Notes under the pieces: model-generated
The model's database searches: none
The model's input: the letters and a program-made list of their open reading frames with translations, nothing else
What the model was told of the DNA's origin: nothing
UHGV virus genome: UHGV-0128318
Length of the DNA stretch: 19,979 bases
Source of the DNA: a virus
Reading direction: 5' to 3' (one strand)
In this document: in pieces, positions 1,768-15,726 of the stretch
How the letters are laid out: each line of letters opens with the position of its first letter
Numbering within the stretch: the first letter of the stretch is position 1
Translations under genes and position numbers: made by a program

Positions 1768-1903
1768 GTTGTGTGACCTACCTCGCCTGCCCCCTGCAAA
1801 GGGCAGAAGTAACGGAGGAAACGCGGCTGCAACCACAGACATCACCGCCCCGACTGCGAGGCTTCCCTTCTCTAAGAAGGGCATAAATTCGGGCTGGTCA
1901 ACC

Positions 1904-2677
1904 CTATTTATTGGTGATTTCTGCTGGCTTTAGCTGCGCGGATAACTGCTCAAGTTTTTGAACTGCCAGTTCAAAATGCGCGGGTAACGCCTTTTCCAGA
2001 TCAGAGTTAATATCGGTGATGGGTAAATCACCACACGACATACTCCGCCTACCCCCACGAACAACATCACGCAACAACTCTCGTTCATACGTGCGCATGT
2101 TCCCCAATGCCGACTCAGCAGCCGTCAAAATCCGGCGCAGTTCTGCCGTAATTGCTGGCAAATCATCAACCGTTATGGGGTTCGGGGATGGATTACGACA
2201 CGCCCGACGCAAAGCTAACCATACACCGCTAATCCAGGCATTTCGGTACTGAAAACTTTGTGCTATATCGTTAATCAGCCCTCGCAGATACTCTTTCTGC
2301 CTCCAGTTCAACGGCTCCGCTGCTCGCATTGGCTCAGGCTCGATGTAAACGTACTCTCCATTTTTACGAATAGAGGGCAAGACTTCGTTCGTTACCCATT
2401 TGCGAAACCGCCAAGCTGTTGTGCCTTGCTTCACCGCGTCACGGCAGCGGAGAATGAGCGTGTAAAGACCTGATTCACTGATGATATTGGCTTGACCTTG
2501 ACGGCCTATGTTAAACATAGATCGCTCATCTTCATCTAATCGAGCGATAGCTTGTGTGACATTCTGGATGCTTAAAGCATTGCAAATATCATTCGCCACA
2601 AACCACGGATCGCCGTTAATCATCACTACACGTACCTGATGCTCTTCCTGAAAGGAAAAGACTGCTAACGCGCTCAT
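1904..2677 (-). CDS. Bro-N domain antirepressor (AntB-like), 257 aa
   Basis: N-terminus FSFQEEHQVRVVMINGDPWFVANDICNALSIQN...ISESGLYTLILRCRD...WVTNEVLPSIRKNGEYV is a typical Bro-N signature. Its ATG overlaps the stop of the upstream ORF (ATGA coupling). Confidence 0.75.
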   Translation of the reverse strand: MSALAVFSFQEEHQVRVVMINGDPWFVANDICNALSIQNVTQAIARLDEDERSMFNIGRQGQANIISESGLYTLILRCRDAVKQGTTAWRFRKWVTNEVLPSIRKNGEYVYIEPEPMRAAEPLNWRQKEYLRGLINDIAQSFQYRNAWISGVWLALRRACRNPSPNPITVDDLPAITAELRRILTAAESALGNMRTYERELLRDVVRGGRRSMSCGDLPITDINSDLEKALPAHFELAVQKLEQLSAQLKPAEITNK

Positions 2678-2907
2678 TCAGCCTCCTTACCGTGCAGCAA
2701 TTGCGACGAGAGCGATGCTGAATATCCCTGTGCTTCGTGTGTTAACTCACACGCAATTTGAAGGAGTTTCCCTGCTTCTGAGAGATAAATCGACGCCTCA
2801 CAGCTGGAGACTGTCCGATGGGCTGATGATACGAGCGCATAGACCTGAGCCAGACGTTCATCCAACGATTCCAGCAGGCCAACAGTGTTCATTTTTACCT
2901 GATTCAT
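2674..2907 (-). CDS. Small protein (77 aa) in the antA position of a P1/N15-type icd-ant operon
   Basis: ORF translationally coupled on both sides (ATGA overlaps with icd-like stop and with the Bro-N gene start); no recognisable domain. Confidence 0.45.
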   Translation of the reverse strand: MNQVKMNTVGLLESLDERLAQVYALVSSAHRTVSSCEASIYLSEAGKLLQIACELTHEAQGYSASLSSQLLHGKEAE

Positions 2908-3068
2908 GCAGCCACCTCGCGCACCGGAATACGGGCAGACAATACCAGGACAAACCGGCTGGCGAACTGGCGACGAGCTTCCCGTTCAGATGACGCGATG
3001 GTGGAAAGATGATGGATGTGTGACTTTTTGTCTGTGCGAACGACTGCCGCAAATTTGAATTTGAACAT
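2904..3068 (-). CDS. icd: Icd/Ash-like small protein (54 aa: MFKFKFAAVVRTDKKSHIHHLSTIASSEREARRQFASRFVLVLSARIPVREVAA). It is absent from the ORF track (shorter than the track's apparent cutoff) and conflicts with the spurious track ORF 2858..3052.
   Basis: ATG at 3068-3066 preceded by GGAG at about 8 nt; stop overlaps the next gene's ATG. The FKFAA...RRTD...EARRQ...ARIPV pattern resembles Icd/Ash-family proteins of P1/P4-type immunity operons (from memory, unverified). Confidence 0.5.
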   Translation of the reverse strand: MFKFKFAAVVRTDKKSHIHHLSTIASSEREARRQFASRFVLVLSARIPVREVAA

Positions 3069-3106
3069 GGTATGCACTCCGTTTAATTGGTCGTGCTACC
3101 ACCAGA

Positions 3107-4674: not shown

Positions 4675-7600
4675 TTACCCATAGAAAGCGCCCTGCTCTT
4701 CGTAGCTGCATGGGCTATTCCCGGTAATGTATTCACGTAACCGCCGCAGTTCATTGCTGGATAAGTGATCCATGAACTCTGTGAGGTACAGAGAGGCAAA
4801 CGTCATAGCTATGCTGGCTGATGACCATGATGACATAGTGGCCAGCTCCTCACCGGAAAGCGCACTCATCGCCCAGGACTCAGGTACAACCACTGGCAAC
4901 ACAGCCAAAGCCTCAGAAATTACTGAATGAGGGGCGTTTTGAACCTGCTCGTTTGTGGATCGCGTTTTATCATCCATATATATATTGAGATCCAAATCGC
5001 GATCCATTTCGATGGCGGTCTTCTCGGCTTTACGCGTTTTCAGGGTTAGGCCATCTTTCTGACGCTGAGCAAGAATATCCAGCATAAATGCCGCTGATTC
5101 AGGCTCAACAAAACGCAAGGTTGGACGCTTATCGCCGTCTCTGCCGCGACGTTTACCTGTTTTAAGGCCAAGAGAGTCGCAAATGTTTTTAAACAACGCT
5201 TCCGGCACTTTAGGCTTCCCTTTTGGCGTCATAAAACCACCAATGTGCAGAACGTTATTCAACAGGTCACGGCGTTCGGCTGTCATGAGGTTATCTCGAG
5301 CGAATTTGAGACGCTCCTGAGTCGCCTCGCCGGTCATAGTCTCAGGGTTGATACCGCAGTCGATAAAGTACTGCCGGAGAGTTGCTGATTTAAGCGCATA
5401 GAAACCGCGCGCCCCGACTTCAACAGTAGGAGTAGCTTTTACCTTGTGATCGATTATTCCAGGGAATTTAGTTTTAAAGACATCATCAGCCTGCTCGCGA
5501 GTCATCGCGGTCACTACAAAATATTGCCACTGTCCCGCCTGACGGTATGCGTAGGTAAAATTGATGGCTGCTTCTTCCCGGTCGTAACGACGAGCTGTTA
5601 CCTCATCTAAAAGCATTGTTTCATAGCGGCGAACTTTGTCTCGAGCACCATCGAAATAGAATTTCAGCGTGCCTTCTTCAACCGGTAGTTTCAGTTCGTT
5701 TTCAATATCCCAGCGGACAAGTTTTGCCTGTTCTTCAAGCGTCAGCGCGCGTTTTTTTAGCAGTTCTTCACGCTCTGATTCTTGTGGAGTTTCTGTATTG
5801 AGGTGCAGATCCAGTGTCTGTTCCCACACAATATCCCGCGCTTCTTTACGCAGATCTTTACCGATATCATTCGCAGCATAATCGGTGGCCAGCGGTGATA
5901 CCTTATAACCGTCGCTGTGCATGATGCAGATCATGTTGCTGGCGTAGTCGTTACGCGCAGTCGCTTCAATTGCGGCTGCTTTAATTTTCATCCTGGTAAA
6001 GTCGGTATTGGCCACCCCCATTGATATACGGTCGCCATCGAAAACGACATCCGTAAGTTCACCGTTCATACCTGCGGTAGCAAGCAATGCCTGGGCGAAT
6101 GCTCGTTCTATTTTTTGCGGGTCAGTTTCACGTTTTGCACGAGCTTTATCAAAGCCGATAATAAATTCTTTTGCTGTACGGTCGCGGCGTAGCATTTGCA
6201 CTGCGTCGCTGGGTACAACTTCACCACAGAACATGCCGAAATGACGGTCAAAATGTTTTTGCTCAATCGACACGCCGGATGAAATAGACGGGCTATAAAT
6301 CAGGCCGTCGTATTTTTTGACCATCTTTTTCGGTTGATTGGTAAATGCTTCAACTTCTGGCTCTGGTTTGTTTTTCTGGTTTACACACAGAAATTTCTTA
6401 CCAGGAAAATGCATTCTCAGGGTGGCTGTCACATCTTCTGCAAAGGTGGAGCTGTCGGTGGCCAACATGATTTTTTCGCCATCCGATACAGCTTTCACCA
6501 CCTCGGTCATGATGCGATCTTTTTCTGTATAAAAAACCCGGATTGGCTCACCTGTTTCGCGGTTGCGAACATCAACAGGTAATTCAATTACGTGGATCTG
6601 CAGCCATGCCGGTAAACCTAGTTCTTCACGGCGTTTCATAGCCAGTTCAGCCAGGTCAACCAGTAGATCGTTCGCATCAGCATCCACCATGATTGGGTGT
6701 TGTTCCGTTCTGGCCAGCGCGTCAATTAGCGTATTGAATACAGCAACCGGGTTTTCCATAGCCCGACCGGAAAGAACGGCACGTAGCCCTTGCGTGGCCT
6801 CGTCAAAGCCAAAATAGTCGTGCTGGCGCATCAACGGTTGCCAGCAGTTTTTAACAATCGAGTTTATGCAGATGGTCAGTTTACTGGCGTATGGAGCCAT
6901 TTCCTGATAGCCAGGGTCCTGATAGTGCAGGATATCGGCTTTTACACCTTTTCCTTCTGTCATCATTTCCCACAGGCCACCAATAAGGGAGACACGGTGA
7001 GCAACAGAGATACCACGTTCTGAGCTATGCATTAACGGTCGTAACAATCCAGTAGATTTGCCGGAACCCATACCAGCACGGACGATGACTATCCCCTGTA
7101 GTGATTGCACGTACTTCAGGACATCATCGGTCATTACCGAAGTTTCAAAACGCTTATAGGTGATATGTTGAGGGCGTTTATTGGGATCAGTTATGCGTTC
7201 GCTGAAAGAGCGCGGAGCCTGGGCAATACGGCACTTTTTATTCAGGCGACGGGCAATGTGGTCTTTTACCGTAGCGCGATAGATATTTTCCAGTCCCATT
7301 TCACGCAGAACGATGCAGAACATGTTAAATAAATCTGACGGACTGTTAGGAACCGGGCAGGTTAGCATGCCAATATCCACCGCTCTCAGCAGCTCTTTGG
7401 CAAAAGTACGACGGTTATCCCGCTTAATTGTCTTCAGGCGGTTGAGCGTCAGAGATAGCAAATCAGTGCCAGTTTTCAGGCGGTTTGCAGTTGCAAACAG
7501 TTGACGTGCTGTTTCACGAAGTCCACGTAGTTTGTGCAGGTCGTTGAAGTCACTGCACTCCATTTGCGGATCGTCTTCAAAAGTTGGATAGACGCAGCGG

Positions 7601-8909: not shown

Positions 8910-9506
8910 TCATCTACCCTCAACCATGAATGATTTGATCGTTCCGACTATTTGGTGAACAAATTCAAGATCGCTTTTCCTGAAGATGGCGCGTTGTGAG
9001 TTTGTTCCATCCAGATAGTAATTTTCATCATCAAAACGGGCCAGGCGCTGGATAGTGATATTTCCTGCAGTATCACGAACCAGAACATCCTCGCCGGGGA
9101 CCAGTTCCAGCGCAGAATCGACCAGGAGAAAATCGCCTGGCTGATAGTTTCCCTGCGTAAGATTGCTGATAGTTAACGCATACACAGTATTGCGCTGGCT
9201 GATGAATGGCAGGAATCGCTCAGTATTTGGAACCTGTCCCGGCTTCCACTCTTCATCCGGCCCACTTTCAGTTGTGCCAATAACAGGAATGCGATCAGGG
9301 TCATATTCTGTCCCATATAGCACCCAATGCACTGGCTTGCGTAAGCACTTAGCCAGGGCAATACCTATCTCCAGTGACGGCATTACGTCGCCACGTTCTA
9401 AGTTTTGGACGCCTGCTATAGAGATATCGACAGCCTCAGCAACTTCTCGCAACGTCAGCTTCATCTCTAAACGGCGTGCTTTCAGTCGTTCGCCTCGTGT
9501 TTTCAT
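8910..9506 (-). CDS. cB: Prophage repressor CB (lambda CI-like: N-terminal HTH, C-terminal S24/LexA-like domain), 198 aa
   Basis: HTH region LTLREVAEAVDISIAGVQNLERG at the N-terminus and a C-terminal domain of repressor size; divergent from cro across an operator region. Confidence 0.85.
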   Translation of the reverse strand: MKTRGERLKARRLEMKLTLREVAEAVDISIAGVQNLERGDVMPSLEIGIALAKCLRKPVHWVLYGTEYDPDRIPVIGTTESGPDEEWKPGQVPNTERFLPFISQRNTVYALTISNLTQGNYQPGDFLLVDSALELVPGEDVLVRDTAGNITIQRLARFDDENYYLDGTNSQRAIFRKSDLEFVHQIVGTIKSFMVEGR

Positions 9507-12288: not shown

Positions 12289-12974
12289 AATTTTCCAAAT
12301 TTTCTGAGTTGGTGAATCGTATTTTGTCCAACAACCACAGCCATCGTCGCGATATGGATGTAACAATCGTTATTCATTCGCCTGGCAGCATTGGTTCAAC
12401 ACCCTCAGTTGAGGTTCAGTCAATTCACGCTGGTTTTGATTGGGATTCCGGGAAAGTGCTGATTTTCCCAGCACAGCCACTGACCACGCTAACACCAGAA
12501 CAGATTACTGATATTACTGATAGTGTGCGCAAAGGTCAGTCCTGGCACGCATATCAGGAATACAAGAAGCATAAAGAGCAGTTGGAAAAATTATCGATTG
12601 AACTTGATACCGCAAAACAGCGCATTGCAGAGCTGGAGAGCAATCGCGCGGCGCTGGCGGCGGAGCCTGTAGCGTGGCGATATCGCTACGTGAAAAAAGG
12701 CGTTACGGACTCTCAGGGGGAGCCGTGGGTTGGTGACTGGAAATATGTACCGACAACAGAGGATTGCAACGACAGGCCGAGCTATGAGATTCAGGCCTTA
12801 TTCACTGCCCCGCCAGTCCCGGTGACATCAGAAGGACTGGTTAAAGCCGTGCGTTTCTATGAACAAGTTAAGCGTGAAAATCCGCCAGTCGAAACCGGAG
12901 CATGGAAAGACGCGATTGACTGGGTGCTCAAAGAGGCCTGCCAGGTTGTAAACACTGGCATCAAAGGAGAATGA
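12285..12974 (+). CDS. Hypothetical protein, 229 aa, with a central coiled-coil (KEQLEKLSIELDTAKQRIAELESNRAALAA)
   Basis: ORF with overlapping start/stop junctions in the operon; no recognisable domain. Confidence 0.5.
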   Translation: MKFSKFSELVNRILSNNHSHRRDMDVTIVIHSPGSIGSTPSVEVQSIHAGFDWDSGKVLIFPAQPLTTLTPEQITDITDSVRKGQSWHAYQEYKKHKEQLEKLSIELDTAKQRIAELESNRAALAAEPVAWRYRYVKKGVTDSQGEPWVGDWKYVPTTEDCNDRPSYEIQALFTAPPVPVTSEGLVKAVRFYEQVKRENPPVETGAWKDAIDWVLKEACQVVNTGIKGE

Positions 12975-12975
12975 T

Positions 12976-13185
12976 ATGGCTATTGCCGCAAGTTACACCA
13001 TGCATCTCTATTGTGACTGCCGTCAGTGCACGGAAGGTGTATATCCAGTGCCAGACTTCGGTGAGTATATAGGTACGTCATGGGCTGGCTGTGCAAAAGA
13101 GGCGCGCAAGGATGGCTGGCGAATAAGCAAAGACAAAACGCGTGCTTTTGCGCCAGGGCATAAAGTTTTGAGGATTAACAAATGA
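12976..13185 (+). CDS. Hypothetical small Cys-containing protein, 69 aa
   Basis: Tightly packed within the operon; contains CDCRQC. Confidence 0.4.
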   Translation: MAIAASYTMHLYCDCRQCTEGVYPVPDFGEYIGTSWAGCAKEARKDGWRISKDKTRAFAPGHKVLRINK

Positions 13186-13577
13186 CCACTATTACCAAAG
13201 AGCGACTGCTGACAATCAAGCAGTGGCGCGAAACATACGGACCGGGTAGCAACGTTGTACTGCCAGCAGAAGAAGCGGAAGAACTGGCACGAATTGCGCT
13301 GGCATCGCTGGAAGCAGATCCAGTTAAACGAGTTAACTCAGATCAGATGCGCCGAGTCTGCTTAGAAGCTAATCGCCATTTAGATAAATATGACGCGATG
13401 GCGAAAGAGGTAAATAAGTTGCTTGGACGCATCGCCCCGCCAGCGCCGGTAGTGCCGGAAGAAATCAGTACGACCCACACAATGCTGCCCGCCATGAGTG
13501 ATCAGTTGATGGCGTTCGGTTATGTGAAGGGGTGGAATGCCTGCCGTGCCGCTATGCTTCAGGGAAAAGGAGAGTGA
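13182..13577 (+). CDS. Hypothetical protein, 131 aa (MTTITKERLL...)
   Basis: ATGA overlap with the upstream gene; shares its first five residues with the next gene. Confidence 0.5.
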   Translation: MTTITKERLLTIKQWRETYGPGSNVVLPAEEAEELARIALASLEADPVKRVNSDQMRRVCLEANRHLDKYDAMAKEVNKLLGRIAPPAPVVPEEISTTHTMLPAMSDQLMAFGYVKGWNACRAAMLQGKGE

Positions 13578-13578
13578 T

Positions 13579-14031
13579 ATGACCACTATAACCGATAAGA
13601 AACAGTATCCAGGCGAGCAATATCTTAATGAGCTGATCACCAACATAGAGTTTGCTGCAAGGGCACCAGTTGAAGTCGTGAGAGCGATGGCAGCAGAGCT
13701 ACAGAAGCGGCGCGAAGCTGATAGTGCAGAACCTGTAAGCCAAACTTACAAGTTAACTTTTGAGCAATGGCTGGAACAGCAGCACGGCAAAATTGATGTT
13801 GATTGCGGCTGTGTGAGCACTGAAATGCTTCTGCACTGGATGCGTGTGGCGTATGAGGCTGGCAACTCTCCGGTAACTCCGGATGGTCATGTTCAGTTTT
13901 CTGTTTCACTTCCTGCAGCGTTTGGTGGAGATAAATATTTTATTGATGGTGTATTTCAACCTTTGAGATATGAGCGTGACTGTGAAAGGGCGGTTGTGGC
14001 CGCTGGCGGTGTAGTTAATTGGGTTAAGTAA
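13579..14031 (+). CDS. Hypothetical protein, 150 aa (MTTITDKKQY...)
   Basis: ATG one nt after the upstream stop, RBS GGAGAG; the track start at 13537 is an extension. Confidence 0.5.
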   Translation: MTTITDKKQYPGEQYLNELITNIEFAARAPVEVVRAMAAELQKRREADSAEPVSQTYKLTFEQWLEQQHGKIDVDCGCVSTEMLLHWMRVAYEAGNSPVTPDGHVQFSVSLPAAFGGDKYFIDGVFQPLRYERDCERAVVAAGGVVNWVK

Positions 14032-14634: not shown

Positions 14635-14662
14635 AAATTGACCGTAAAGTTTGAGTTTTACC

Positions 14663-14678
14663 CTGTAATTTTATACAG
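14663..14678. promoter_or_regulatory. LexA (SOS) box CTGT-aattttat-ACAG overlapping a candidate promoter (TTGAGT-17-TACAGT)
   Basis: Matches the CTGT-N8-ACAG consensus with an AT-rich spacer; the only such site found in the window. Confidence 0.55.
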
Positions 14679-14716
14679 TACAAACAACCTTTTTTAGTTA
14701 AATGGTATGAGATTTA

Positions 14717-14920
14717 ATGTCTGAAGCAGCCGTATCAACTCTTGAACAACTCGATTCAAATTTAAGAGATATTGACGCCATTCTGGATCTGGTTAGCGTC
14801 ACCCTGGCTTCTCCAGAAGCCAGCCTACATATTGGTGAGGTTTCACGACTCATCAACATGTCGCGAGAGATTGCCCAGCATTGTCAGAAAACTATCGCTG
14901 TTGAGCGTTCACATCATTGA
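14717..14920 (+). CDS. Small SOS-controlled protein, 67 aa; candidate LexA-regulated antirepressor (AntC/Tum-like by regulation and position)
   Basis: First ORF downstream of the LexA box; N15 is known to have a LexA-controlled small antirepressor. No sequence-level identification was possible. Confidence 0.4.
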   Translation: MSEAAVSTLEQLDSNLRDIDAILDLVSVTLASPEASLHIGEVSRLINMSREIAQHCQKTIAVERSHH

Positions 14921-14962
14921 TGCACACCCCGCCCTTCTGGACGGGGTAGTAAAAGAGTCTAA

Positions 14963-15250
14963 TTAATAAACAGCGCGAATATCGATGGCTGCGCCGCAGG
15001 CATGAGCATATTTAGCCAAAGTTTTCATACTTGCCCCTAAAGGATTGCTTTCCAGGCGGCTGATGGCTGACGGTCGTAACCCCATTCGTTCAGCCAGAGC
15101 TGATTTCGTTAAACCTGCTCTTTCCCTCATTTCGTATAACATTTCGACCATCTCCAGCTCTTTGTCGGCCTCTTCATATCCTTTGACGGCTTCTGGAGTG
15201 TTGAGGAGTTTTTCTTTTACTTCGTTAAACGGGATGCCTTTCGCTTTCAT
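14963..15250 (-). CDS. HTH (XRE-family) antitoxin, HigA-like, 95 aa
   Basis: HTH segment LTKSALAERMGLRPSAISRLES; translationally coupled (ATGA) to the upstream toxin gene. Confidence 0.75.
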   Translation of the reverse strand: MKAKGIPFNEVKEKLLNTPEAVKGYEEADKELEMVEMLYEMRERAGLTKSALAERMGLRPSAISRLESNPLGASMKTLAKYAHACGAAIDIRAVY

Positions 15251-15561
15251 CAGTTCATCTCCTTCAGGCGAGTTCTGGCGATTTCGATAGCCTTCACCGG
15301 TGTTTTCTGTGTCTTTTTTACAAATGCATGCAATAGATAAATTTCGTTACCAGTCGCGTAGGCGTACAGCGTTCTTGCGATGTTTTTATCCCCTACTCGT
15401 AGTTCAAAAAGCCCTCCACCTATTACACGGCTATGGGGCATCTTCAGTTTGTTGCCTTCTTTCTCCAGTCGCTCAATTAATCTGGCCATGCGACCTCGCA
15501 AATCATCTGGTAGTTCAAGCAGTTCATCCAGTGCTGCAGGGTGGGTTATCACGTTAAACAT
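15250..15561 (-). CDS. Gp49-like (RelE/HigB-fold) toxin, about 103 aa (MFNVITHPAALDEL...LLHAFVKKTQKTP...)
   Basis: Hallmark LLHAFVKKTQKTP motif of the Gp49-like family; ATG at 15561 with GGAGG at about 8 nt; the track's longer start lacks an RBS. Confidence 0.8.
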   Translation of the reverse strand: MFNVITHPAALDELLELPDDLRGRMARLIERLEKEGNKLKMPHSRVIGGGLFELRVGDKNIARTLYAYATGNEIYLLHAFVKKTQKTPVKAIEIARTRLKEMN

Positions 15562-15726
15562 ATTATAGCCTCCACATCCATAAAATACACCAAAACAAGA
15601 AAACAACGCAAATTAAAAATTTCATTAAAAAGCGAAAAATAACACTGGATGTGTTCGTTTGGCAGAGTTACAGTTCGTGTCATTGAGGGGCAATAACCCA
15701 CTAACTATATGAATTTGGAGGATATT

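What the first reader, a model, noticed from the sequence alone, without database searches (positions are those of the whole stretch)
14637..14920. Consensus LexA box driving a 67-aa ORF: candidate SOS-inducible antirepressor
CTGT-aattttat-ACAG (14663-14678) overlaps a promoter-like TTGAGT-17-TACAGT and is followed by a small acidic ORF. N15 and several other temperate phages link SOS to induction through a LexA-repressed small antirepressor rather than repressor autocleavage. This would be the second antirepressor route in the window, alongside the RNA-controlled Bro-N operon.
Basis: partly seen in the sequence, partly recalled or inferred. Interest (0 to 1): 0.6.

Follow-up and report, generated by a model that had tools for sequence, protein, structure and literature searches.

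The report
SOS-controlled antirepressor gene antC orthologue
This is the counterpart, in an N15-like linear plasmid prophage of E. coli, of the small antirepressor gene antC that the host DNA-damage repressor LexA keeps silent in phage N15, so the finding is real but is an already described induction mechanism.

Summary
CTGTAATTTTATACAG (14663-14678) is the only exact CTGT-N8-ACAG in the window. It is the best LexA-like 20-mer there, scores like working E. coli SOS boxes, and overlaps TTGAGT-17-TACAGT. A 67-aa acidic ORF (14717-14920) follows.

The window is an N15-like (Ravinvirus) linear plasmid prophage. The ORF is 54% identical to an unannotated N15 ORF in the same position, between gene 47 and the convergent gp48/gp49 toxin-antitoxin pair. 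That N15 ORF follows one of only two strong LexA boxes in the N15 genome; the other precedes the umuD-like gene. It is therefore N15 antC, the LexA-repressed antirepressor of repressor CB (Mardanov and Ravin 2007).

Of 31 distinct homologous upstream regions, 29 keep CTGT-N8-ACAG 36-40 nt before the start codon. The ORF is under purifying selection (dN/dS 0.12-0.40) and models as a confident two-helix hairpin. The window's CB is 78% identical to N15 CB and lacks the self-cleavage Ser, Lys and Ala-Gly.

LexA binding and the AntC-CB contact are inferred, not shown, for this phage.

The parts
14651..14656 (+). -35-like hexamer TTGAGT of the antC promoter
   Evidence: Read directly from the sequence. 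It matches TTGACA at 4 of 6 positions. The TTTG at 14650-14653 is invariant in all 29 distinct homologous upstream regions. N15 has TTGCGG at the same place.
14661..14680 (.). LexA (SOS) box CCCTGTAATTTTATACAGTA, core CTGT-N8-ACAG at 14663-14678, covering the promoter spacer and the -10 hexamer
   Evidence: It is the only exact core match in the window. Its heterology index is about 6.0, the best in the window and better than every one of 100 shuffles. The core is kept in 29 of 31 distinct homologous upstream regions at 36-40 nt from the start codon, while the 8-nt spacer varies.
14674..14679 (+). -10-like hexamer TACAGT, 17 nt after the -35 and inside the right half of the LexA box
   Evidence: Read directly from the sequence. 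TATACAGTA is invariant in all homologues.
14702..14710 (+). Conserved leader block. The conserved ATG-GTA is followed here by TGA, giving a two-codon mini-ORF. The invariant GGTA (14704-14707) is a possible ribosome-binding element 10 nt before the start codon.
   Evidence: GGTA is invariant in 29 distinct upstream regions. In N15 the same ATG is in frame with antC (MVYDSM...). In the window it stops after two codons, so translation must start at 14717.
14717..14920 (+). antC orthologue: a 67-aa acidic protein that models as a two-helix hairpin, the inferred antirepressor of CB
   Evidence: It is 54% identical to the N15 ORF at NC_001901 39619-39831. It matches PHROG 6301 at 3.7e-35 and PHROG 10889 'anti-repressor' at 4.5e-8. 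dN/dS against seven homologues is 0.12-0.40. The AlphaFold2 model has pLDDT 93.9 with helices 3-31 and 33-66.
14924..14950 (.). G+C-rich hairpin between antC and the convergent toxin-antitoxin operon. It lacks a U-tract on either strand, so it is at best a weak terminator.
   Evidence: Folding gives -14.6 kcal/mol on the plus strand (z -2.1) and -19.4 kcal/mol on the minus strand (z -3.6). The terminator scan did not list it. N15 has a canonical bidirectional terminator of -30.6 kcal/mol at the same place.
8910..9506 (-). cB, the prophage repressor and inferred target of AntC
   Evidence: It is 78% identical to N15 CB over 198 aa. It has an HTH_3 domain plus a degenerate S24-like C-terminal domain that scores below the Pfam cut-off. 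The LexA K156 equivalent is Gln, the GxSM serine motif is absent, and Ala-Gly is replaced by Asp-Pro.

Best explanation
The region is the antC locus of an N15-like linear plasmid prophage.

In the lysogen, host LexA dimers bind the SOS box at 14661-14680. The box covers the spacer and the -10 hexamer of a weak sigma-70 promoter (TTGAGT-17-TACAGT), so bound LexA keeps RNA polymerase off. DNA damage activates RecA, LexA cleaves itself, and the promoter opens. A short monocistronic transcript is then made and translated from the ATG at 14717 into a 67-aa acidic two-helix protein, AntC.

AntC binds the prophage repressor CB (gene at 8910-9506). CB cannot cleave itself because its S24-like domain has lost the catalytic Ser and Lys and the Ala-Gly site. 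CB is thereby removed from its operators. That derepresses cro, Q and repA and starts lytic growth.

Shown here: the box, the promoter elements and the ORF; their conservation; orthology to the N15 locus; coding selection; and the degenerate CB peptidase domain. Taken from the literature on N15: AntC acts against CB and is LexA-controlled, and N15 CB is non-proteolytic. Inferred for this phage: LexA occupancy, damage inducibility and the AntC-CB contact.
For: - **Identity of the element.** The window is 98-99% identical to the Ravinvirus phages PhiR46_1 and YDC107_1 and about 72% identical to N15. It has the same gene order: telN, immA, repA, cB, cro, Q ... gp46, gp47, this ORF, then the convergent gp48/gp49 pair.
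- **Orthology.** tblastn finds the ORF in N15, phiKO2 (Gp47) and Klebsiella and Enterobacter telomere phages at 52-55% identity and in the same position.
- **Which N15 ORF is antC.** N15 has only two strong LexA-like boxes. One is at 21658 before the umuD-like gene 26. The other is at 39562-39581, 37 nt before the homologous ORF. This identifies that ORF as the LexA-regulated antC of Mardanov and Ravin 2007, as cited in PMC4488713, PMC3121763 and PMC11652158.
- **Family annotation.** The ORF matches PHROG 10889, annotated 'anti-repressor', at 4.5e-8.
- **LexA box quality.** The box is the best LexA-like site in the window.
- **Conservation.** The box is kept in 29 of 31 distinct upstream regions at a fixed distance, and the left half-site lies in the promoter spacer, where promoter function imposes no constraint.
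- **Coding.** dN/dS is 0.12-0.40, and the model is a confident helical hairpin.
- **Repressor.** CB is 78% identical to N15 CB and lacks Ser, Lys and Ala-Gly. Published work finds N15 and phiKO2 CB lacking these sites (PMC4997575) and N15 repressor not cleaved after SOS induction (PMC10432266).
- **Inducibility of a relative.** Phage NAR688, which carries a homologue, is induced with mitomycin C (PMC12042878; hit H10).
Against: - No experiment exists for this phage.
- The primary N15 paper could not be read. The assignment of the N15 ORF as antC therefore rests on the LexA-box scan, its position, secondary citations and my memory of the paper.
- The promoter matches consensus at only 8 of 12 positions and was not called by the scan.
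- AntC is only 51-54% identical to N15 AntC while CB is 78% identical, so binding specificity could have shifted.
- The right half of the LexA box coincides with the -10 hexamer, so its invariance cannot be credited to LexA alone.
- Two relatives, phiKO2 and Kpn74, carry a damaged left half-site, which shows that the box is not absolutely required.
Confidence: 0.87

Rival explanations
1. The gene is LexA-controlled, but its product is not an antirepressor of CB in this phage. It could be another small SOS-induced effector, for example a modulator of RecA or LexA, of cell division, or of the neighbouring toxin-antitoxin pair.
For: The protein has no Pfam or NCBIfam family and no structural neighbour. 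It is only 51-54% identical to N15 AntC. It lies 43 nt from a convergent HigB/HigA-like operon.
Against: It is the positional orthologue of the N15 gene, with the same conserved motif set (D13, L16, D18, SPE-SL, R50). It matches the PHROG annotated anti-repressor. Its presumed partner CB is conserved at 78% identity and is non-cleavable, so the phage needs some antirepressor for SOS induction. In a Citrobacter relative the adjacent toxin-antitoxin pair is replaced by a HicA-type module while antC stays, which argues against a functional tie to the toxin-antitoxin pair.
Confidence: 0.07
2. The LexA-like box is mainly a promoter element (the -10 and spacer), with little LexA control. The ORF is expressed chiefly by read-through from the upstream early operon (gp46-gp47) once lytic growth has begun by another route.
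For: The invariant TATACAGTA includes the -10 hexamer. No terminator-like site was found between the gp47-like gene and the ORF, which lie on the same strand 82 nt apart. phiKO2 and Kpn74 have imperfect left half-sites.
Against: The left CTGT lies in the spacer, where a promoter imposes no sequence constraint, yet it is kept in 29 of 31 distinct sequences while neighbouring spacer bases vary. The site scores like genuine SOS boxes and better than any shuffle. N15 antC is reported to be under direct LexA control (PMC3121763, PMC11652158).
Confidence: 0.04
3. The box and the ORF are chance features of an intergenic region, and there is no gene.
For: The core pattern alone occurs by chance in 37 of 200 shuffles. 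Many database records leave the ORF unannotated.
Against: Homologues occur in 213 plasmid records, 40 viral contigs and 37 protein clusters. dN/dS is 0.12-0.40, with synonymous change saturated against the most distant relatives. The model has pLDDT 93.9. The box position is fixed relative to the start codon.
Confidence: 0.01

Closest known systems
AntC of coliphage N15 (Mardanov and Ravin 2007, J Bacteriol 189:6333), the LexA-repressed antirepressor of repressor CB
   Same: - Same genus of phage, and the same genomic slot between gp47 and the convergent gp48/gp49 toxin-antitoxin pair.
- Homologous protein: 54% identity, and the same PHROG 6301.
- Same promoter architecture, with a CTGT-N8-ACAG box over the spacer and the TACAGT -10, 36-37 nt before the ATG.
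- The cognate CB repressor is 78% identical and likewise lacks the autocleavage residues.
   Different: - The LexA-box spacer is AATTTTAT rather than GTTTATAT.
- The -35 is TTGAGT rather than TTGCGG.
- The C-terminus diverges after residue 63.
- No in-frame upstream ATG is available, because it is stopped by TGA.
- The strong bidirectional terminator of N15 is replaced by a weaker hairpin without a U-tract.
- No experimental data exist for this variant.
Tum of coliphage 186 and GfoA/GftA of the Salmonella Gifsy prophages, which are LexA-controlled antirepressors
   Same: The logic is the same. A non-cleavable repressor is inactivated by binding a small protein whose gene lies outside the immunity region and is repressed directly by LexA (PMC3121763).
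   Different: No sequence relationship was detected. The Pfam scan of the 67-aa protein gave no hits, and Tum is 146 aa with a DinI-like half (PMC3121763). The phage lineages also differ: P2-like and lambdoid rather than N15-like.
N15 immA anti-immunity operon (antA, icd, antB, with control by the CA RNA). The homologous operon is in the window near 1900-3100 on the minus strand and includes a BRO-N protein.
   Same: It also counteracts CB immunity in N15-like phages and is present in the same window.
   Different: The proteins are unrelated, with a BRO-N domain rather than a helical hairpin. The operon is controlled by a processed small RNA and transcription termination, not by LexA, and it is not the SOS route (PMC4488713).

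Membership tests
N15 AntC-type LexA-controlled antirepressor locus | Protein homologous to N15 AntC | tested here: met
   BLASTP gives 54% identity over 63 aa at E 8e-25. Both proteins match PHROG 6301 (3.7e-35 and 1.5e-25) and PHROG 10889 'anti-repressor'. Caveat: the N15 ORF is unannotated in the record. I identified it as antC from its LexA box and position and from memory of the paper.
N15 AntC-type LexA-controlled antirepressor locus | Same genomic position, after the gp46/gp47 homologues and before the convergent gp48/gp49 toxin-antitoxin pair | tested here: met
   Shown by the annotated regions of N15, phiKO2, YDC107_1, PhiR46_1 and plasmids together with the window ORF list.
N15 AntC-type LexA-controlled antirepressor locus | LexA box overlapping the promoter of the gene | tested here: met
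   The box at 14661-14680 overlaps the spacer and the -10 hexamer. Its heterology index is about 6.0, and it is conserved in 29 of 31 distinct upstream regions.
N15 AntC-type LexA-controlled antirepressor locus | LexA actually binds, and transcription is induced by DNA damage in a RecA- and LexA-dependent way | not testable with these tools
   This needs an EMSA or footprint and reporter assays. The only indirect support is that the related phage NAR688 is induced by mitomycin C (PMC12042878).
N15 AntC-type LexA-controlled antirepressor locus | The cognate repressor CB is not self-cleaving | tested here: met
   In an alignment with LexA, lambda cI and UmuD, K156 aligns with Gln, the Ser of GxSM is absent, and Ala-Gly aligns with Asp-Pro, identically to N15 CB. 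The S24 match is below the Pfam cut-off. The literature on N15 and phiKO2 CB agrees.
N15 AntC-type LexA-controlled antirepressor locus | The product binds CB and relieves repression | not testable with these tools
   No complex prediction was possible under the tool restrictions. This is inferred from orthology only.
Tum (phage 186) / DinI-fusion antirepressors | DinI-like domain or sequence similarity to Tum | tested here: not met
   The 67-aa protein has no Pfam family at E<=0.1 and no NCBIfam family.
BRO-N / ANT / KilAC-type phage antirepressors (P22 Ant-like) | BRO-N, ANT or KilA-C domain | tested here: not met
   No Pfam hit was found. The protein is a 67-aa two-helix hairpin.

The most novel reading that the evidence does not exclude
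AntC in this E. coli lineage is only 51-54% identical to N15 AntC, while its partner CB is 78% identical. This may mark a shifted AntC-CB specificity pair. Co-resident or superinfecting N15-like prophages would then be induced either independently or by cross-talk.

In addition, the N15 bidirectional terminator has been lost here. Transcription of the convergent toxin-antitoxin operon could therefore run antisense into antC and add a second, LexA-independent brake on induction.
Probability: 0.15. Interest if true: 0.35.

Novelty: new member of a known kind. Interest (0 to 1): 0.15.

Why it matters
It explains how this family of linear plasmid prophages senses DNA damage even though its repressor cannot cleave itself. 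The family occurs in 213 plasmid records in the collection searched, mostly from Klebsiella and E. coli isolates, many of them clinical.

The practical value is for annotation. The gene is missing from the N15 reference record and from most plasmid records, and elsewhere it is called 'hypothetical protein'. No Pfam or NCBIfam model exists for it. Naming it antC and marking its SOS box would improve predictions of which telomere phages are inducible by DNA-damaging antibiotics.

Scientifically it adds no new principle.

Tried and rejected
- **Primary paper.** I tried to read Mardanov and Ravin 2007 by PMC id and by DOI, and it is not held. Literature searches for a statement of antC's coordinates found only secondary citations.
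- **Family libraries.** Pfam and NCBIfam gave nothing for the 67-aa protein.
- **Fold searches.** Foldseek of the model against the PDB and BFVD returned no matches. This is uninformative for a helical hairpin.
- **Source names.** Two large protein searches gave 11 and 37 clusters, all unnamed or 'hypothetical protein', so they offered no independent naming.
- **Genome scan.** The species-representative genome scan gave only three loci. One, the Vibrio locus L010, was a false positive inside a 604-aa lipoprotein and was discarded.
- **Promoter and terminator scan.** It listed neither the promoter nor the downstream hairpin.
- **Other promoters.** I considered an alternative -35, TTGACC at 14638-14643, and rejected it because no -10 lies at the right spacing. 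I also rejected TTTGAG-16-TATACA, whose -35 matches at only 2 of 6 positions.

Full report
**What the window is**

The 1.7 kb around the finding is 98.8-98.9% identical to two Escherichia phages, PhiR46_1 and YDC107_1. YDC107_1 is classified in the genus Ravinvirus. Their annotation and the window's ORFs show the N15 layout: protelomerase, a Bro-N (immA) operon, repA, cB, cro, Q, a run of small early genes, a convergent toxin-antitoxin pair, a methylase and lysis genes. Against N15 itself the window aligns at about 72% DNA identity in collinear blocks. In complete E. coli genomes the 361 bases around the finding occur in 16 of 5,426 genomes, always on plasmids of about 36-75 kb.

**Check of the observation**

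- CTGTAATTTTATACAG lies at 14663-14678. It is the only exact CTGT-N8-ACAG in the window.
- That core pattern alone is expected 0.2 times per window and appears in 37 of 200 shuffles, so it is weak evidence by itself.
The site scores 6.0 when read as TACTGTATAAAATTACAGGG. The known boxes have a median of 5.8 and a maximum of 9.8.
- It is the best site in the window (next best 10.1) and better than the best site in each of 100 shuffled windows.
- TTGAGT (14651-14656), 17 nt and TACAGT (14674-14679) are as described. They match consensus at only 8 of 12 positions, and the promoter scan did not list them.
- The ORF 14717-14920 encodes 67 aa with pI 5.1 and net charge -5.

**What it is**

- tblastn with the 67-aa product finds the same small ORF in N15, phiKO2 (annotated Gp47), several Klebsiella telomere phages and an Enterobacter Ravinvirus, at 52-55% identity.
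- In N15 the match lies at 39619-39807, in the unannotated gap between gene 47 and the convergent gene 48. The ORF there runs to 39831 and is preceded by CCCTGTGTTTATATACAGTA.
- A scan of the whole N15 genome finds only two strong LexA-like sites. One is at 21658, in front of the umuD-like gene 26. The other is at 39562-39581, 37 nt before the homologous ORF. The next best site scores above 12.
[quoted passage not shown] It also states that AntC is a LexA-controlled antirepressor (PMC3121763; PMC11652158).
- The N15 ORF is therefore antC, and the window ORF is its orthologue. I could not open the primary paper. My memory that it places antC between genes 47 and 48 is consistent with this but is not a tool result.
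- Both proteins match PHROG 6301 (no function given) and, more weakly, PHROG 10889, annotated 'anti-repressor'. Neither Pfam nor NCBIfam has a model.

**Comparative evidence for the regulatory elements**

I collected 52 homologous loci from phages, plasmids, viral contigs and genomes.

- Among 31 distinct 140-nt upstream regions, 29 have CTGT-N8-ACAG ending 36-40 nt before the start codon, with heterology indices of 1.8-6.6. The exceptions are phiKO2 (ATGT) and Kpn74 (CTTT).
- In an alignment of 29 distinct upstream regions the invariant blocks are TTTG at the -35, most of the LexA box including TATACAGTA, and GGTA in the leader. The surrounding bases vary freely.
- The right half-site coincides with the -10 hexamer, so its invariance is ambiguous. 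The left CTGT lies in the promoter spacer, where only LexA binding explains its conservation.

**Evidence that the ORF is a gene**

- dN/dS against seven homologues is 0.12-0.40, and synonymous sites are saturated against the most distant relatives.
- A 28-sequence alignment has invariant D13, L16, D18, S32-P33-E34, S36-L37 and R50.
- AlphaFold2 gives a two-helix hairpin (helices 3-31 and 33-66, turn at the SPE motif) with mean pLDDT 93.9.
- Foldseek found no neighbours in the PDB or BFVD, which is unsurprising for such a fold.
- The upstream ATG used as the start in many database entries for relatives (MVYDSM..., MVDNSM...) is followed here by GTA-TGA, and the Klebsiella group lacks it. The conserved ATG at 14717 is therefore the start.

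**The target**

The window's CB (8910-9506, minus strand) is 78% identical to N15 CB. Aligned with LexA, lambda cI and UmuD, it has Gln in place of the catalytic Lys, no GxSM serine motif, and Asp-Pro where the Ala-Gly cleavage site would be. N15 CB is identical at these positions. Its S24 match falls below the Pfam cut-off. Published work reports the same absence for N15 and phiKO2 CB (PMC4997575) and shows that the N15 repressor is not proteolysed after SOS induction (PMC10432266). A non-cleavable repressor needs an antirepressor for SOS induction. A related phage that carries the homologue, NAR688, is induced with mitomycin C (PMC12042878).

**Mechanism**

LexA bound at 14661-14680 occludes the spacer and -10 of PantC. 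RecA-stimulated LexA cleavage frees the promoter. AntC is then made and binds CB, so CB leaves its operators and lytic genes switch on. The sequence anatomy and the orthology are shown here. The biochemical steps are taken from N15 and inferred for this phage.

**Differences from N15**

- The box spacer, the -35 hexamer and the C-terminal residues differ.
- The strong bidirectional terminator of N15 (-30.6 kcal/mol) is replaced by a shorter hairpin without a U-tract. It folds at -14.6 kcal/mol on the plus strand and -19.4 kcal/mol on the minus strand. It lies between antC and the convergent HigB/HigA-like operon, whose toxin matches Pfam Gp49 and whose antitoxin matches HTH_3.
- Whether antisense read-through from that operon matters is speculation.

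**Rivals**

- A LexA-controlled protein with some other function is possible but unlikely, given orthology, conserved motifs and a conserved non-cleavable partner.
- A promoter-only reading of the box does not explain the conserved left half-site.
- A chance ORF is excluded by the comparative data.

**Verdict**

The element is the known N15-type antC locus in a close relative of N15, so it is a new member of a known kind and of low interest. The main practical point is that the gene is systematically unannotated or unnamed. It is absent from the N15 RefSeq record, has no annotated feature under the match in most of the 213 plasmid records, and is called 'hypothetical protein' in all named clusters.

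Noticed in passing
window 12638-13729: About 1.1 kb present in the window is absent from the two closest phages, PhiR46_1 and YDC107_1, which are otherwise collinear at about 98% identity. It carries the small ORFs 12976-13185 and 13182-13577 and the start of 13537-14031. This is a mosaic insertion in the early operon.
   Followed up: partly
window 14963-15606 (- strand): A convergent two-gene toxin-antitoxin module, homologous to N15 gp49/gp48. The toxin is Gp49/HigB-RelE-like (PF05973, 5e-29) and the antitoxin has an HTH_3 domain. It ends 43 nt from the antC stop codon. A Citrobacter relative has a HicA-type module at the same place.
   Followed up: partly
window 14924-14950: The hairpin between antC and the toxin-antitoxin operon has no U-tract on either strand and is much weaker than the canonical bidirectional terminator at the same spot in N15 (-30.6 kcal/mol). 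Antisense read-through into antC is conceivable.
   Followed up: partly
window 14702-14710: The upstream ATG that is in frame with antC in N15 and its Enterobacter relatives, and that many database entries use as the start, forms only an ATG-GTA-TGA mini-ORF here. The Klebsiella group lacks it. GGTA is invariant and may serve as the ribosome-binding element.
   Followed up: partly
L056 (N15 NC_001901) 39619-39831; plasmid hits: The antC homologue is not annotated in the N15 reference record, and most of the listed plasmid records have no annotated feature under the match. Where it is annotated it is called 'hypothetical protein'. No Pfam or NCBIfam model exists.
   Followed up: yes
L004 (phiKO2) about 1445-1464; L007 (Kpn74) about 1441-1460: Two relatives have a damaged left LexA half-site, ATGT in phiKO2 and CTTT in Kpn74, with the right half intact. 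Their antC may be less tightly repressed or differently controlled.
   Followed up: no
L056 (N15) 21658-21677: The second strong LexA box of N15 (TACTGTATAAAAAAACAGTT, heterology index 2.1) lies just upstream of the umuD-like gene 26. The corresponding region is outside this window.
   Followed up: no
window 6523-6542: The next-best LexA-like 20-mer in the window is TTCTGTATAAAAAACCCGGA, with a heterology index of 10.1. It lies inside repA on the opposite strand and has a broken right half-site, so it is probably chance.
   Followed up: no
window 1904-3052 (- strand): The Bro-N protein gene (1904-2677) and the small ORFs upstream of it correspond to the N15 immA anti-immunity operon (genes 30-32). 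YDC107_1 annotates a 'putative secondary immunity repressor' there. This region was not examined further.
   Followed up: no
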